Positions 37,847 to 42,622 of a stretch of DNA of 64,000 bases are shown here, piece by piece (within the stretch, counting starts at the first letter, position 1; every line of letters begins with the position of its first letter). Both the position numbers and the translations under genes were made by a program. The stretch comes from Epsilonproteobacteria bacterium UBA4036 (GTDB lineage: Bacteria; Campylobacterota; Campylobacteria; Campylobacterales; Arcobacteraceae): contig DGAG01000007.1 in assembly GCA_002382325.1 (NCBI GenBank), forward strand, positions 200,235 to 264,234. Reading direction: 5' to 3'. The notes below the pieces were generated by a model. It saw only the letters and a list, made by a program, of their open reading frames with translations. It was not told the origin of the DNA and searched no databases.

Positions 37847-37867
37847 AAATCACTCTTTTATAAATTA

Positions 37868-37882
37868 TGCAACAAAGTTGCA
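37868..37882. promoter_or_regulatory. operator-like palindrome TGCAAC-AAA-GTTGCA
   Basis: This 6-3-6 inverted repeat lies 22 nt upstream of the DUF1007 start codon. It shares the TGCAAC/GTTGCA core with the palindrome at 37905-37935. Confidence 0.45.
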
Positions 37883-37904
37883 ACTTTGAAATAGTAGCAC
37901 ATAA

Positions 37905-37935
37905 TATTTAAATGCAACTTAGTTGCATTTAAATA
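37905..37935. promoter_or_regulatory. perfect 31-nt palindrome TATTTAAATGCAAC-TTA-GTTGCATTTAAATA (core 10-1-10 AAATGCAACT-T-AGTTGCATTT)
   Basis: I checked base by base that the arms are exact reverse complements. It lies in the divergent region between the metal transporter operon and the QueD-like gene. Confidence 0.55.
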
Positions 37936-38978: not shown

Positions 38979-39797
38979 TCACTCACAGCTTTCGCTGTTT
39001 GCCAATCGTTTGAGTTCATCACAACTAAATCCTGCTTTTTTTCTGGCTTCAAAATTCAGCGATTGCTTTTTTTGAGTACTTCCAGGGTAAAACTCTTCTA
39101 AGAGTTTTAAGTAGGTTTGTTCGGGTTCAATTTGCTCTTCTTTACACGCATATTTAAACCATCGATCCCCTTTTTGAACATGTGTAATCTCTTCTTCCAA
39201 AATAATGTTTAACGCTTCTAAAATAGCATAATTTGTCTCATCGGGATTGGATTTAAGTTTTTCCATAATTTTAGGATTTTGATCCAAACCATTGGCTTCT
39301 AAATAGCGTGGGACAATTGCCATTCGACTCAAAAGAGTGGTGGTTTTTTTCATTGCTTCAAACAAATTGGTATGAACTTCAAAATCGCCATACTGGTATC
39401 CCAAACGATGTAAGAGCTTTTCACACATCTTAAAATGTCGAATTTCATCTTCGGCAACCTCAAGCCAATCTGCGTAATATTCAAAAGGCAAATTCATAAA
39501 GCGATACGCAGCATCCAAAGCCAAATCCACCGCACAATACTCAATATGGCATATGGTGTGCAATAACTTGGCTTTTCCTTCAACTGTATCAAAATATTTT
39601 CTTTGTTTTACCTCTTTGGGCAAAACAATTTTTAAAAAAGAGTCATAACTTGGTTTTTCTAAACCTAAAGGCAAATACTCTTTTTCAAATACGATTTCAT
39701 TGTTTAAAAATTGTGTGTAAAAATAAGTAAAGGTATCAAACTTTTTTTGTGGGTTTTCTTCAAACAAAATAGTTTCTAAAGTTTTAAAATAGTACAC
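38979..39797 (-). CDS. DUF455 ferritin-like di-iron family protein
   Basis: 272 aa with HIEYCAVDLALDA and EDEIRHF, LEANGLD and EEEITHV helices. It has a GTG start with AAAGAGG 6 nt upstream. Confidence 0.72.
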   Translation of the reverse strand: MYYFKTLETILFEENPQKKFDTFTYFYTQFLNNEIVFEKEYLPLGLEKPSYDSFLKIVLPKEVKQRKYFDTVEGKAKLLHTICHIEYCAVDLALDAAYRFMNLPFEYYADWLEVAEDEIRHFKMCEKLLHRLGYQYGDFEVHTNLFEAMKKTTTLLSRMAIVPRYLEANGLDQNPKIMEKLKSNPDETNYAILEALNIILEEEITHVQKGDRWFKYACKEEQIEPEQTYLKLLEEFYPGSTQKKQSLNFEARKKAGFSCDELKRLANSESCE

Positions 39798-39815
39798 TTA
39801 ATACCTCTTTGTTAT

Positions 39816-40081
39816 GGGCACCACTAAAAATTAGAACGCCTATAAACGCCAAAGGAGTGTTTCTAGGTTAAAGAGTTTTAAAGTAGGACTACTTTAGTAA
39901 TTCAAGTTAAAACTCTTTAAGATAGGAATACTCATTTGTCGCCCCAAGGGGTAGCACATTAAGGCACAATCTTTTAAAAAAAAGAGTCTCGAATTAGCTA
40001 CGGCTAGTCCTTCACCTCTTTTTTTTAAAACCTTATACCTTACTGTACTATTTATAGGTATTCTAATTTTTAGTGGTACCC
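39816..40081. repeat. 266-bp nested inverted-repeat element (candidate structured RNA or MITE-like element)
   Basis: The terminal inverted repeats are GGGCACCACTAAAAATTAGAA (39816-39836) and TTCTAATTTTTAGTGGTACCC (40061-40081), matching 20/21. After 2 mismatches they continue with 8 more matches. Inside are a perfect 14-bp repeat (39868-39881 / 39907-39920) and a perfect 15-bp repeat (39972-39986 / 40016-40030). Confidence 0.6.
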
Positions 40082-40085
40082 TTAA

Positions 40086-40091
40086 TATAAT
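40086..40091 (+). promoter_or_regulatory. candidate -10 box TATAAT for the MBL-fold hydrolase gene
   Basis: TATAAT lies 28 nt upstream of ATG 40119, immediately outside the right terminal repeat. Confidence 0.3.
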
Positions 40092-40118
40092 CAAGAATTT
40101 TATCGAATAAGGTTTAAA

Positions 40119-40712
40119 ATGGATATTAAAGTTAAGCCCATGGGCGATTATCAAACCAACTGCTATATTGTGAGCATTGAAAATAAAGATTTTATTATTG
40201 ACCCAGGAGTAAACGCTGTTTCATGGGTGAAACAAAATGTTAAAAATCCTGTCGCCATTTTTAACACACACGGACATTTTGACCATGTATGGAGCAATGC
40301 TGCTTTGCAAAAAGAGTTAAATCTTAAAATTTATTGCCCAAAAGAAGATGCTTTTATGTTACAAAATGACCCATTTGGTTTTGGGATGCCTTCAAGCATA
40401 CCTGATGTGCTTGTGCAACCCGATGAAGCATTTGATTTTGATGGCGTTAAAGTCAAATTTCATTTTTTCCCCGGGCACACTCCTGGTTGCAGCGCCATTG
40501 AAATCAACAATACTCTCTTTAGTGGGGATTTTATTTTTAATGGTTCCATTGGCAGAGTTGATTTTCCCTACTCCAGTCCTGATGATATGAAAAGCAGTTT
40601 ACGCAAAATTTTATCGTGGGATAAAGATATGGTTATTTACCCTGGACATGGCTTAAATACGAAGTTGTCACAGGAAAAGAACTCTTTAAATAACTGGTTA
40701 AATTATTTGTAA
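40119..40712 (+). CDS. MBL-fold metallo-hydrolase (glyoxalase II-like)
   Basis: 197 aa with NTHGHFDH, PGHTPG, GDFIF and YPGHG. Confidence 0.85.
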   Translation: MDIKVKPMGDYQTNCYIVSIENKDFIIDPGVNAVSWVKQNVKNPVAIFNTHGHFDHVWSNAALQKELNLKIYCPKEDAFMLQNDPFGFGMPSSIPDVLVQPDEAFDFDGVKVKFHFFPGHTPGCSAIEINNTLFSGDFIFNGSIGRVDFPYSSPDDMKSSLRKILSWDKDMVIYPGHGLNTKLSQEKNSLNNWLNYL

Positions 40713-40768: not shown

Positions 40769-42622
40769 ATGAAAAAAAGAATAATTGTACAATTTTCGAT
40801 AATGATTATTTGCATTGCCCTTATCATTACATCGATGATTGCGTACAATTTACGTGAAACGGGGATTAACTCTTCGATTAATACGGCTAAATCCATTTCA
40901 GAAGTGGTTAAAAATGGATTAACTTCCCATATGATTAATGGCAATATGGATCAAAGAGATACCTTTATTAATTCCATTTCCAATATGTCCAACGTGAAGC
41001 AGCTTTGGTTTGTTCGTGCCAATGCAGTGACTGAACAATACGGTGCAGGTCAAGAAAATGAAAAAATCAGAGACCAAATTGATAACCGTGTTATACGAAC
41101 AGGAAAAATGGAGTATAAACTCTATGAAAACTTTGCAACCAATGAAACCATAATGCGAGTCACCATTCCTTATTTGGCAAACACAGAAGGCAATGTAAAC
41201 TGTCTTACTTGCCACAACGTTAAATACGGTGAAACACTGGGTGCCGTCTCCATTGAGTTGGATATTAACGATTTAAAACAAGTGGGATTGCAATCCATAT
41301 ATCTTTTAATTGGAATTACTTTAGGCAGTATGCTTTTGGTAATATTTATTACATCCAATATTTTAAAACCCTATATTCAACTTTTTGAAAAAATTGCCAT
41401 CAGTATAAAAGAGGCGATTAATGGACGATTTATTCAAGTCAAAAAACCGTATAAACTCTCTTCGGACATGGTATTGTTTACCGATGATTTTAATATGCTT
41501 TTAGAGAGCTACAAAGCCACTTTTGACGATATTGACAAAAAACTCAAATACTTTATTGGGCAAACCACATCAAAAGAGAATAAAACCCCTTTAGATGAGT
41601 CAAAATTGATTATTACTAATTTATCAAATCTGTATCAATTTAAAAAAGAGATTGAACAAGACCAAACCAAAGAAGAGATTTTTAATCGCTTGGTGCAAGT
41701 TTTGAGAAATCAATTTCATCAAAAACATTTTACGATTTATCAAACTAACCTCAAAGAAGAGACCAGAGAGATTGTCAGTCAAGTGGGTACGTTGAATTTT
41801 TGTTGTCCTTCGAATATGAGTAATCCCGCTTTATGTCGGAGTGCAAGAACCAACAATGATGTTGTTTCCGTTGATTTTCACAATCCCTGTCCTTGTTTTA
41901 CACAAAGCGATTACTACTATTATTGCACCAGTACAAACATCAATAAAAACACCATTATTGTGATTAACTTTGTACTTGAAACCAAAGAAGAGTTGCAATA
42001 TGTCAAAGACAATATTGCTTTTATTAAAAGCTATATCAATGAAGCCGCTCCCTCTATTGAAGTTAAAATTCTTTTACAAGCATTAAAAGATTCTGCTTTT
42101 AGAGATGGATTAACGGGTCTTTACAATCGAAAATTCTTGGATGAGTATATTAAAAAAGCGCTTCCACAAGTTTTAAGAGACAATAAAAAGTTAGCCGTAT
42201 TGATGCTTGATATGGATCACTTTAAATCAGTCAATGATGAATACGGACATGATATTGGCGATTTGGTTTTAAAAGAGTTGGGCTATATTTTAATTCAAAA
42301 TGTAAGAGAGTCCGACTTAGTCATCCGATTTGGAGGCGAAGAGTTTATTGTTATTTTAAATAACATTGACAGCATTGAAAGTGCTTTACTTGTTGCCAAT
42401 AAAATACGAGAGCAAGTGGCACAAAATGAGATTGATGTTTATGCCGGAACAAAACTTAGAAAAACCGTCAGTATTGGTCTTTCTATCTTCCCTGATGATG
42501 GAAAAACATTTGATGGTGTCTGTAAAAATGCAGATATTGCTCTTTATGAAGCAAAAAATAAAGGACGTAATCAAGTGGTGGTTTTCAATGAGAGTCAAGT
42601 CAGTAGTATTGATCTATTTTAG
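40769..42622 (+). CDS. membrane diguanylate cyclase with DUF3365-like periplasmic domain carrying one CxxCH motif, Cys-rich GAF-like middle domain and GGDEF
   Basis: An N-terminal TM is followed by a periplasmic part ending NVNCLTCHNVKYGETLGAVSIE, then a second TM. A middle region has CCPSN...CRSA...CPCF. The GGDEF domain has RESDLVIRFGGEEF. Confidence 0.85.
   Translation: MKKRIIVQFSIMIICIALIITSMIAYNLRETGINSSINTAKSISEVVKNGLTSHMINGNMDQRDTFINSISNMSNVKQLWFVRANAVTEQYGAGQENEKIRDQIDNRVIRTGKMEYKLYENFATNETIMRVTIPYLANTEGNVNCLTCHNVKYGETLGAVSIELDINDLKQVGLQSIYLLIGITLGSMLLVIFITSNILKPYIQLFEKIAISIKEAINGRFIQVKKPYKLSSDMVLFTDDFNMLLESYKATFDDIDKKLKYFIGQTTSKENKTPLDESKLIITNLSNLYQFKKEIEQDQTKEEIFNRLVQVLRNQFHQKHFTIYQTNLKEETREIVSQVGTLNFCCPSNMSNPALCRSARTNNDVVSVDFHNPCPCFTQSDYYYYCTSTNINKNTIIVINFVLETKEELQYVKDNIAFIKSYINEAAPSIEVKILLQALKDSAFRDGLTGLYNRKFLDEYIKKALPQVLRDNKKLAVLMLDMDHFKSVNDEYGHDIGDLVLKELGYILIQNVRESDLVIRFGGEEFIVILNNIDSIESALLVANKIREQVAQNEIDVYAGTKLRKTVSIGLSIFPDDGKTFDGVCKNADIALYEAKNKGRNQVVVFNESQVSSIDLF

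What the first reader, a model, noticed from the sequence alone, without database searches (positions are those of the whole stretch)
39816..40081. 266-bp nested inverted-repeat element in a divergent intergenic region (structured RNA or MITE)
- The flanking genes (DUF455, minus strand; MBL hydrolase, plus strand) diverge, so no terminator is expected here.
- The terminal inverted repeats match at 20 of 21 positions and then at 8 more after a 2-nt mismatch.
- Inside are a perfect 14-bp repeat enclosing a small AGTA/TACT hairpin (39868-39920) and a GCCCC/GGGGT mini-hairpin (39941-39952).
- There is also a perfect 15-bp A/T-rich repeat enclosing a TAGC/GCTA hairpin (39972-40030).
- This is a closing stem plus a three-way-branch layout, as expected for a structured RNA. 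It equally fits a non-autonomous transposable element with terminal repeats.
- The left end lies only 5 nt from the DUF455 RBS. The right end abuts a TATAAT for the hydrolase gene. Each terminal repeat reads TTCTAAT outward, so the element may supply or gate both promoters or leaders.
Basis: seen in the sequence. Interest (0 to 1): 0.62.

Follow-up and report, generated by a model that had tools for sequence, protein, structure and literature searches.

The report
Small mobile hairpin element (MITE)
The 266-bp nested inverted repeat is one copy of a small, non-coding mobile DNA element found a few times per genome in Arcobacter-like bacteria, inserted between two promoters; it belongs to a known kind of element and is not a new structured RNA.

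Summary
Window 39816-40081 holds 31-nt terminal inverted repeats closing two 35-nt-arm hairpins and a mini-hairpin, and it folds far better than shuffles (z -11.5 and -12.5).

It is a dispersed, mobile repeat, not a conserved RNA gene.
- A strain with 99.3-99.6% identical flanks has an empty site (TTTG-TTAA-TATAAT). The window carries 270 extra bp, which is the element plus 4.
- Copies 94-98% identical lie at six or more unrelated intergenic loci in metagenomes and in an Arcobacteraceae MAG.
- Two other loci also have filled and empty alleles.
- Single-genome runs show the core at about 4-5 copies per ~2.5-Mb genome, and assemblies break inside it.
- Shorter forms (123 and 217 bp) lack one hairpin module or part of one.
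- Every end is flanked by T-N-N-A.

Nothing supports an RNA function. Rfam gives no match, neither strand is favoured, and there is no internal covariation.

No transposase partner with matching ends was found, so the mobilising enzyme is unknown.

Most copies sit 9-60 nt from start codons, often just downstream of a -10 box. They are probably co-transcribed as structured leaders, but this is untested.

Verdict: a new MITE family, which is a known kind of element. Modest interest.

The parts
39812..39815 (.). Left flanking tetranucleotide TTAT. This is the target-site copy; the empty allele has a single TTAA here.
   Evidence: L001 empty site ...CTCTTTG-TTAA-TATAATC. BLAST blocks overlap by 3 nt, and the window has a net 270 extra nt. 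The same joint 39811->40082 appears in runs X2 and X34.
39816..39846 (.). Left terminal inverted repeat (GGGCACCACTAAAAATTAGAACGCCTATAAA). Homology between copies starts exactly at G39816.
   Evidence: alignment A1.
39847..39941 (.). Left hairpin module. It has 35-nt arms, a perfect 14-bp core at 39868-81/39907-20 and an apical AGTA/TACT hairpin. It is bounded by near-direct repeats CGCCAAAGG (39847-55) and CGCCCCAAGG (39940-49), and it is absent from short forms of the element.
   Evidence: L003 (123 bp) lacks it and L016 (217 bp) has it at the same locus. Internal joint 39853->39949 in X2 and X36.
39941..39952 (.). GCCCC-AA-GGGGT mini-hairpin at the junction.
39952..40050 (.). Right hairpin module. 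It has 35-nt arms, a perfect 15-bp A/T core at 39972-86/40016-30 and an apical TAGC/GCTA hairpin at 39995-40006. Short forms carry a simpler, perfect hairpin without the central ~48 nt.
40051..40081 (.). Right terminal inverted repeat. Homology between copies ends at C40081.
40082..40085 (.). Right flanking tetranucleotide TTAA, the second target-site copy.
38979..39797 (-). DUF455 gene (GTG start at 39797, RBS AAGAGG = CCTCTT at 39804-39809). In the empty allele its likely -10 box (TATATT on the minus strand) lies on the far side of the insertion point.
   Evidence: The promoter assignment is inference from the sequence.
40086..40091 (+). TATAAT -10-like box for the MBL-fold hydrolase gene, left intact 4 nt beyond the element.
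   Evidence: It is a consensus match only.
40119..40712 (+). MBL-fold hydrolase gene (PF00753).

Best explanation
The feature is one copy of a non-autonomous mobile DNA element, a MITE-type terminal-inverted-repeat element about 265 bp long. It belongs to a low-copy family (about 4-5 full copies per ~2.5-Mb genome) in Arcobacteraceae-like Campylobacterota from landfill, compost, wastewater and bioreactor communities.

Shown:
- The element is present or absent between near-identical strains.
- It occurs at many unrelated intergenic sites with sharp boundaries, GGGC...GCCC.
- It is modular: forms of 123, 217 and 265 bp differ by whole hairpin modules.
- It is flanked on both sides by T-N-N-A.
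- A filled site has the element's length plus 4 bp compared with the empty site.

Inferred:
- A transposase supplied in trans binds the ~31-nt terminal repeats. The GGG tip and the TAAAAATTAGAA block are invariant.
- It inserts the element at AT-rich TNNA (TTAA-like) sites with a 4-bp duplication.
- Because these sites lie in promoter/leader DNA 9-60 nt from start codons, the element is co-transcribed with the neighbouring gene as a long, highly structured 5' leader. In the window this gene is DUF455, read from its -10 box on the far side.
- The nested hairpins reflect palindromic DNA. They are not a selected RNA fold.
For: Empty and filled sites:
- L001 encodes the identical MBL protein and has 99.3-99.6% identical flanks, yet its spacer is only 24 bp (...TTTGTTAATATAAT...). 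The window has 270 extra nt.
- The same joint is seen in runs X2 and X34.

Dispersed copies:
- Scans with the end pattern found 265-266-bp copies, 93.6-97.7% identical, at different loci. These are L004, L009, L012, L015 and partial L013, plus 123- and 217-bp forms at one locus in an Arcobacteraceae MAG and metagenomes (L003 = L017, and L016).
- Two further loci have filled and empty alleles: L017 versus X57/X58 (net +127 = 123 + 4) and L009 versus X46 (net +268).

Copy number:
- In single-genome runs X7, X8, X9 and X15 the 210-nt core unitig has 4.0-5.0 times the depth of the flanking unitigs, and several distinct flanks are seen.
- Independent assemblies break inside the element: L002, L025, L026.

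Flanks and coding capacity:
- T at -4 in every end and A at -1 in all but one of about 24 ends.
- No coding capacity: the only ORF crossing it has no Pfam match.

All copies lie in intergenic spacers next to gene starts.
Against: - No autonomous element with the same ends was found. The exact-pattern scans of GTDB representatives, JGI metagenomes and viral contigs returned only short elements. In the single-genome runs no contig leaves the terminal repeat inwards into other sequence.
- Plasmid and phage collections have no match.
- A clean target-site duplication is seen only approximately. The window has TTAT/TTAA. In the contigs L004, L009, L012, L015 and L003 the two central bases of the flanking TNNA differ between the two sides.
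- Part of this may be repeat-induced chimeric assembly or recombination. L004 and L012, from one assembly, have reciprocally swapped flanks, and contigs in X28 and X30 join flanks of different loci. The L003 pairing, however, is confirmed by an empty allele, so it is real.
- The transposase family is therefore unassigned.
Confidence: 0.8

Rival explanations
1. The element is a structured non-coding RNA gene or cis-regulatory leader (riboswitch- or 6S-like), and its fold is what selection maintains.
For: - Very stable multi-branch fold, z about -12.
- Contigs from metatranscriptome-type runs contain it.
- Three compensated pairs in the closing stem across copies.
Against: - No Rfam family matches, even at E <= 10, apart from hairpin-like miRNA noise.
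- Both strands fold equally well, and the favoured strand flips between copies. G-U counts are balanced.
- The internal helices are invariant, so they give no covariation, and the alifold covariation term is a penalty, +11.3.
- Helices are long and near-perfect, as in DNA palindromes.
- The element is absent from a 99.5%-identical strain and sits next to unrelated genes.
- Its RNA-run depth excess over flanks (about 3x) equals its DNA copy number.
Confidence: 0.05
2. The element is mobilised as a single-stranded DNA hairpin by an HUH/Y1 enzyme, as REPINs are by RAYTs or as IS200/IS605-derived palindromic elements are. On this view a DDE transposase acting on the terminal repeats is not involved.
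For: - The whole element is a foldback.
- No parent IS shares its ends.
- The flanking tetranucleotides are not identical on the two sides in several copies.
- A 'plus 4' gain would also arise if the last four bases are an element-borne cleavage site.
Against: - The ends are true 31-nt inverted repeats of each other. They are not separate sub-terminal hairpins on one strand.
- The left-flank tetranucleotide varies (TTAA, TCAA, TATA, TAAA, TTTA, TGAA), whereas IS200/IS605 elements use a fixed target.
- There is no GTAG- or CGTC-tagged GC-rich REP unit.
- Copy number is low.
Confidence: 0.1
3. Whatever moves it, the element acts as a portable regulatory cassette. Either outward-reading -10-like sequences in each terminal repeat (TTCTAAT / TATTCT) drive the adjacent genes, or the transcribed hairpin is cut by RNase III and sets mRNA levels, as in Neisseria Correia elements.
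For: - Copies lie 9-60 nt upstream of start codons of genes such as dnaJ, recR, clpS, bioD, DUF455 and the MBL hydrolase. These genes must therefore be transcribed through or out of the element.
- In the window the insertion separates DUF455 from its likely -10 box.
- 7 of 24 ends have a strong -10-like hexamer 6-9 nt outside the end reading inwards, against 7% of background non-coding TNNA sites (the test was post hoc).
- Promoters and RNase III processing are documented for Correia elements (PMC10969869).
Against: - The consensus promoter scan finds nothing inside the element.
- TTCTAAT lacks the conserved A at position 2 of a -10 box.
- No strand-resolved or 5'-end transcript data were available.
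- The -10 enrichment may only reflect that short AT-rich spacers upstream of genes are the tolerated sites.
Confidence: 0.3

Closest known systems
Correia repeat-enclosed elements (Neisseria MITEs)
   Same: Both are small non-coding elements with ~26-35-nt terminal inverted repeats. They fold into long hairpins and insert into AT-rich sites immediately upstream of genes. Size variants arise by internal deletion. Insertion is polymorphic between strains, and no cognate transposase is known. Correia elements carry outward promoters and are RNase III substrates (PMC10969869), which is the obvious model for function here.
   Different: The sequences are unrelated and the phylum differs. Copy number here is about 4-5 per genome, against more than 100 for Correia. 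The flanking signature is T-N-N-A with a net +4 bp, not a TA duplication (Correia's TA is recalled from my own knowledge). The interior consists of two further long hairpin modules.
ERIC/IRU and other enterobacterial or cyanobacterial MITEs (e.g. Nezha)
   Same: These are imperfect palindromes with longer variants made by insertion of extra internal blocks. Mobility is inferred from empty versus filled orthologous sites, as was done for Nezha (PMC3184786).
   Different: Nezha shares its terminal repeats with a known IS (ISNpu3), whereas no such partner was found here. ERIC is about 127 bp and largely immobile. There is no sequence similarity.
REPIN / REP elements mobilised by RAYT transposases
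   Same: They are hairpin-forming intergenic repeats that are mobile without encoding their own enzyme (PMC3116915, PMC2817692).
   Different: REPs are 20-40-nt GC-rich palindromes with a GTAG or CGTC tag and occur in hundreds of copies (PMC3733652). This element is AT-rich, 265 bp long, low in copy number, and has long terminal inverted repeats.
IS families with 4-bp target duplications at YTAR/TTAA-like sites (the IS5 group of the IS5 family)
   Same: Ends beginning GG.., a net 4-bp gain, and a preference for T..A tetranucleotides. These family traits are recalled from my own knowledge of ISfinder descriptions and were not tested.
   Different: No transposase gene and no IS with similar ends was found, so any relationship is only a lead.

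Membership tests
Bacterial MITE (non-autonomous TIR element) | Small size and no transposase or other coding capacity | tested here: met
   The forms are 266 bp in the window, 265-266 bp in the other full copies, and 217 and 123 bp in the short forms. The only ORF crossing the element (86 aa, minus strand) runs into the flank and has no Pfam match.
Bacterial MITE (non-autonomous TIR element) | Terminal inverted repeats | tested here: met
   31 nt (35 with flanks) at 89%, and 20 of 21 at the tip, with none expected by chance. Homology between copies ends exactly at the repeat tips.
Bacterial MITE (non-autonomous TIR element) | Multiple dispersed copies in a genome | tested here: met
   At least 6 fully sequenced loci with different flanks, plus further flanks seen in read-lay outputs. 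Core depth is 4-5 times the flank depth in four single-genome runs.
Bacterial MITE (non-autonomous TIR element) | Evidence of mobility: filled and empty orthologous sites | tested here: met
   Window versus L001, X2 and X34. L017 versus X57/X58. L009 versus X46.
Bacterial MITE (non-autonomous TIR element) | Target-site duplication flanking the element | tested here: inconclusive
   Net gain is the element plus 4 bp at two loci and plus 3 at a third. The window has TTAT...TTAA against a single TTAA in the empty allele. All ends are flanked by TNNA, but the middle two bases differ between the two sides in five contig-borne copies. Contigs across the repeat are partly chimeric.
Bacterial MITE (non-autonomous TIR element) | Terminal repeats shared with an autonomous IS that supplies the transposase | tested here: inconclusive
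   None was found by exact-pattern scans of genome, metagenome and viral collections, by BLAST of plasmids and phages, or in single-genome runs. A partner with diverged ends would have been missed.
Described structured RNA family (Rfam) | Covariance-model match | tested here: not met
   No match at gathering score in the whole window. At E <= 10 there were only weak hairpin hits to plant and animal miRNA models.
Conserved structured RNA (any, including undescribed) | Strand-specific structure with covariation and conserved genomic context | tested here: not met
   Both strands fold equally, and the preferred strand flips between copies. Only 3 of 98 pairs are compensated, all in the terminal repeats, and the covariation term is +11.3. 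Context varies and the element is dispensable.
REP/REPIN | Short GC-rich palindrome with a GTAG/CGTC tag, high copy number, associated RAYT gene | tested here: not met
   The sequence is AT-rich, 265 bp long and present in about 4-5 copies. Presence of a RAYT gene was not tested.
IS200/IS605-derived palindromic element | No terminal inverted repeats, sub-terminal hairpins on one strand, and insertion 3' of a fixed tetra- or pentanucleotide | tested here: not met
   True terminal inverted repeats are present, and the left-flank tetranucleotide varies among copies.

The most novel reading that the evidence does not exclude
The family may be a promoter-seeking element with an unrecognised mobilising enzyme. 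It inserts at T-N-N-A sites a few bases downstream of -10 boxes, so that host promoters start transcription at about its first base. It persists at 4-5 copies in genomes that appear to hold no IS with matching ends. The two central bases of the flanking tetranucleotide are not faithfully duplicated. Together these points could indicate an insertion chemistry, or an RNA- or single-strand-dependent step, unlike that of standard DDE MITEs.
Probability: 0.1. Interest if true: 0.65.

Novelty: new member of a known kind. Interest (0 to 1): 0.3.

Why it matters
It explains a conspicuous 'structured' intergenic sequence as mobile DNA, which prevents its mis-annotation as an RNA gene. No paper in the searched library describes a MITE in Arcobacter, so this is a previously undescribed MITE family for Arcobacteraceae.

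The element breaks short-read assemblies and can create chimeric contigs in metagenomes of these organisms. Because it lands between -10 boxes and start codons of genes such as dnaJ, recR, clpS, bioD, DUF455 and an MBL hydrolase, it offers natural filled and empty strain pairs. Those pairs can be used to study how a 265-nt hairpin leader affects expression in Campylobacterota.

The practical value is moderate and the conceptual novelty is low, unless the insertion mechanism proves unusual.

Tried and rejected
- **Rfam.** The gathering scan of the whole window and the permissive scan of 39600-40300 gave nothing meaningful. There are no tRNA or tmRNA genes.
- **Strand test.** Fold energies and G-U counts on both strands of eight copies showed no consistent preference.
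- **Covariation.** RNAalifold on seven copies showed invariant internal helices.
- **Other copies in the window.** None.
- **Parent IS.**
  - Exact-pattern scans of genome, metagenome and viral collections returned only short elements or chance hits.
  - L005 and L022 lie inside a DMT/EamA transporter gene.
  - L024 lies inside a GC-rich phage gene.
  - The other single-match loci lack the GGGC tip.
  - Plasmid and phage BLAST gave no match with the element and only E >= 2 chance hits with the terminal repeat.
- **Target-site duplications of 2, 3, 5, 8 or 9 bp, or none.** None fits all copies. IS630-like TA, Tn3-like 5 bp, IS607 GG crossover and Helitron-like A|T insertion were each checked against the junctions and rejected.
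- **Pairing left and right flanks from assembled contigs.** This proved unreliable. L004 and L012 have reciprocal flanks, and contigs in X28 and X30 join flanks from different loci.
- **Flanks seen in other runs.** They were not found as empty sites within the window.
- **Sigma-70 consensus and terminator scan.** Nothing inside the element.
- **Literature.** No paper on MITEs or palindromic repeats in Arcobacter.

Full report
**1. The observation**

- The tips GGGCACCACTAAAAATTAGAA and their reverse complement match at 20 of 21 positions, with none expected by chance.
- Three inverted repeats with 35-nt arms are nested. These are a closing stem (39812-46/40051-85, 89%), a left hairpin (39847-81/39907-41, 83%) and a right hairpin (39952-86/40016-50, 83%). 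A GCCCC/GGGGT mini-hairpin sits between the two hairpins.
- The perfect 14- and 15-bp cores are confirmed.
- Each strand folds into a closing stem with a multi-way junction. Energies are -108 and -114 kcal/mol, against about -55 +/- 4.6 for dinucleotide shuffles, giving z = -11.5 and -12.5.
- The neighbours are a DUF455 gene on the minus strand and an MBL-fold hydrolase gene on the plus strand.
- The element ends 5-6 nt from the DUF455 RBS, and TATAAT begins 4 nt beyond its right end.

**2. It is not a known RNA, and nothing marks it as an RNA**

- Rfam 15 gives no match at gathering score anywhere in the window. At E <= 10 only plant and animal miRNA hairpin models score weakly.
- The two strands fold about equally. 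Across eight copies the more stable strand and the G-U counts flip back and forth. That is what mutated DNA palindromes look like, not a strand-specific RNA.
- In an alignment of seven copies the internal helices are invariant, so they carry no information. Only 3 of 98 pairs are compensated, all in the terminal repeats, and the covariation term is a penalty.

**3. It is an insertion**

- A look-up of the window's MBL protein returned contig L001. It encodes the identical protein, but DUF455 and MBL are only 24 bp apart there.
- L001 reads ...CTCTTTG-TTAA-TATAATC... where the window reads ...CTCTTTG-TTAT-[266 bp]-TTAA-TATAATC....
- The flanks are 99.3-99.6% identical over 6.6 kb, the two alignment blocks overlap by TTA, and the window has a net 270 extra nt, which is 266 + 4.
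- The same empty joint (39811->40082, 3 nt shared) occurs in contigs of two other public runs.
- Three independent assemblies have the filled allele with identical junctions, and their contigs stop inside the element. That is how assemblers behave at repeats.

**4. It is a dispersed family**

- One scan of species-representative genomes with the tip sequence found a 123-bp relative in an Arcobacteraceae MAG (L003).
- One scan of metagenome contigs with a degenerate end pattern found full-length copies at L004, L009, L012 and L015, a partial copy at L013, and the MAG locus again as a 123-bp form (L017) and a 217-bp form (L016).
- The five full copies are 93.6-97.7% identical.
- Similarity stops exactly at GGGC... 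and ...GCCC, and the flanks are unrelated.
- Read-lay outputs from landfill, compost, wastewater and sludge runs show still more flanks.
- In four single-genome runs (about 2.5 Mb of contigs each) whose flanks match the window perfectly, the 210-nt core unitig has 4.0-5.0 times the depth of the flanking unitigs. The L004-type flank is present in the same genome. The window's organism therefore carries about 4-5 full copies.
- Two more loci have filled and empty alleles. L017 versus X57/X58 skips 130 nt with AAT between, a net +127 = 123 + 4; the empty allele reads GTGA-TTAA-TTATAAT. L009 versus X46 is a net +268.

**5. Modular anatomy**

- The 123-bp form is the closing stem plus a perfect 24-bp-stem hairpin.
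- The 217-bp form adds the left hairpin, bounded by near-identical 9-nt direct repeats (CGCCAAAAG / CGCCCAAAG).
- The 265-bp form has in addition about 48 nt in the apex of the right hairpin.
- A joint 39853->39949 that removes the left module occurs in two runs.
- Modules are therefore gained or lost as units, most simply by slippage between the short direct repeats that flank each hairpin. This step is inference.

**6. Junctions**

- Every end examined (about 24) has T four bases outside the tip, and all but one has A immediately outside: TNNA|GGGC...GCCC|TNNA.
- Both well-resolved empty sites carry TTAA at the insertion point, and the filled alleles are longer by the element plus 4 bp. The best reading is a 4-bp duplication of a TNNA target.
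- The evidence is not clean. In the contigs L004, L009, L012, L015 and L003 the central two bases differ between the two sides.
- Part of this is explained by partner swapping. L004 and L012, from one assembly, have exactly reciprocal flanks (TTAA/TCAA and TCAA/TTAA). Contigs in X30 and X28 join the left flank of one locus to the right flank of another.
- Such swaps arise from recombination between copies, a recognised cause of missing duplications (PMC11708052), or from chimeric assembly across a 265-bp repeat.
- The L003 pairing (TTTA/TATA) is genuine, because an empty allele joins the same two flanks.
- I therefore score the duplication as inconclusive and leave the transposase family open. 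An IS5-group-like enzyme (GG.. ends, 4-bp YTAR targets) is only a lead from memory.

**7. No partner found**

- Pattern scans returned no longer element with these ends.
- The extra hits were chance matches inside a DMT transporter gene and a phage gene.
- Plasmid and phage collections have nothing.
- In the single-genome runs no contig leaves the terminal repeat inwards into foreign sequence.
- A partner with diverged ends would have escaped these tests.

**8. Where it sits and what it probably does**

- All sequenced copies lie in intergenic spacers beside gene starts. In the window the pair is DUF455/MBL. In L009 it is bioD-like/clpS. In L015 it is dnaJ/recR, with the element 9-12 nt from the dnaJ start. 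In L012 the copy lies upstream of a periplasmic-binding-type gene. In L003 it lies upstream of a thioesterase gene. Most of these arrangements are divergent.
- In the window's empty allele the minus-strand sequence TATATT-AACAAAGAGG-N-GTG suggests that the DUF455 -10 box lies within the TTAATATAAT block shared with the MBL promoter. The insertion has placed 270 bp between that box and the DUF455 RBS, while leaving the MBL TATAAT intact (inference).
- In L004, L012, L009 and others a TATAAT, TAGAAT or TAAAAT hexamer lies 6-9 nt outside an end, reading inwards. This holds for 7 of 24 ends, against 7.2% of non-coding TNNA sites in the window (binomial p about 0.001). The distance window was chosen after seeing the data.
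- The simplest consequence is that the adjacent gene is transcribed through the element and acquires a ~265-nt hairpin leader. Outward promoters in the repeats (TTCTAAT) are possible but weak by consensus.
- Contigs from RNA-type runs contain the element contiguous with flanks. However, its depth excess over flanks (about 3x) equals its DNA copy number. The data are unstranded assemblies that may include DNA. Transcription is therefore neither shown nor excluded.

**9. Comparison and verdict**

- Functionally and structurally the closest analogue is the Neisseria Correia element. Similar bacterial MITEs such as ERIC and Nezha are also close (PMC10969869, PMC3184786).
- The element meets the MITE criteria of size, terminal repeats, lack of coding capacity, multiplicity and insertion polymorphism. 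The duplication and the parent IS remain open.
- It fails the tests for a described or conserved structured RNA, for REP/REPIN, and for IS200/IS605-derived elements.
- No paper in the searched library describes such an element in Arcobacter.
- It is a new member of a known kind. It is useful for annotation and assembly, and as a natural experiment on leader structure, but it is not surprising in principle.

Noticed in passing
window 37866-37932: Two operator-like inverted repeats TGCAAC-N3-GTTGCA (37868-82 and 37914-28). The second extends to 22-nt arms. They lie in the divergent spacer between the DUF1007/NicO operon (minus strand) and a PTPS/QueD-like gene (plus strand). They are probably binding sites for a dimeric regulator, possibly metal-responsive.
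   Followed up: partly
L003:1489-1611, L016:791-1007 (same locus); window 39847-39855 and 39940-39949: The same insertion locus carries a 123-bp form in one sample and a 217-bp form in another. The 85-95-nt left hairpin is bounded by near-identical 9-nt direct repeats (CGCCAAAAG / CGCCCAAAG). A matching internal joint, 39853->39949, occurs in runs X2 and X36. Hairpin modules are gained or lost as units.
   Followed up: partly
L004:7494-7758 and L012:3673-3937 (assembly ERZ794982); contigs of runs X28 and X30: Contigs spanning the element pair the left flank of one locus with the right flank of another. L004 and L012 have exactly reciprocal TTAA/TCAA flanks. This indicates either recombination between copies or chimeric assembly across the 265-bp repeat, and it is a caution for MAGs of these organisms.
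   Followed up: partly
flanks of the copies in L004, L009, L012, L003 and in runs X26, X7, X46: Strong -10-like hexamers (TATAAT, TAGAAT, TAAAAT) lie 6-9 nt outside an element end, reading inwards, at 7 of 24 ends. The background is 7% of non-coding TNNA sites. Insertions cluster at the start-site region of promoters.
   Followed up: partly
L005:6380-6408, L022:3248-3276; Salmonella plasmid hits H1/H2: A 27-29-nt stretch nearly identical to the terminal repeat (ACCACTAAAAATTAGAACRCCTATAAA) lies inside DMT/EamA transporter genes of unrelated bacteria. I judged it a coincidence of a conserved coding segment.
   Followed up: partly
window 40769-42622 and the next gene downstream (L001:5513-6481): Two consecutive GGDEF-domain genes follow the MBL hydrolase gene. 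The first (617 aa) has a long N-terminal sensor region with several Cys-rich motifs.
   Followed up: no
window 39811-40085 versus run X32: More distant relatives have other empty-site variants at this spacer. One reads ...TTTGTT-ATATAAT..., one A shorter. Another has an 11-nt replacement, TTGCCTCATTT. The shared divergent promoter block is itself indel-prone.
   Followed up: no
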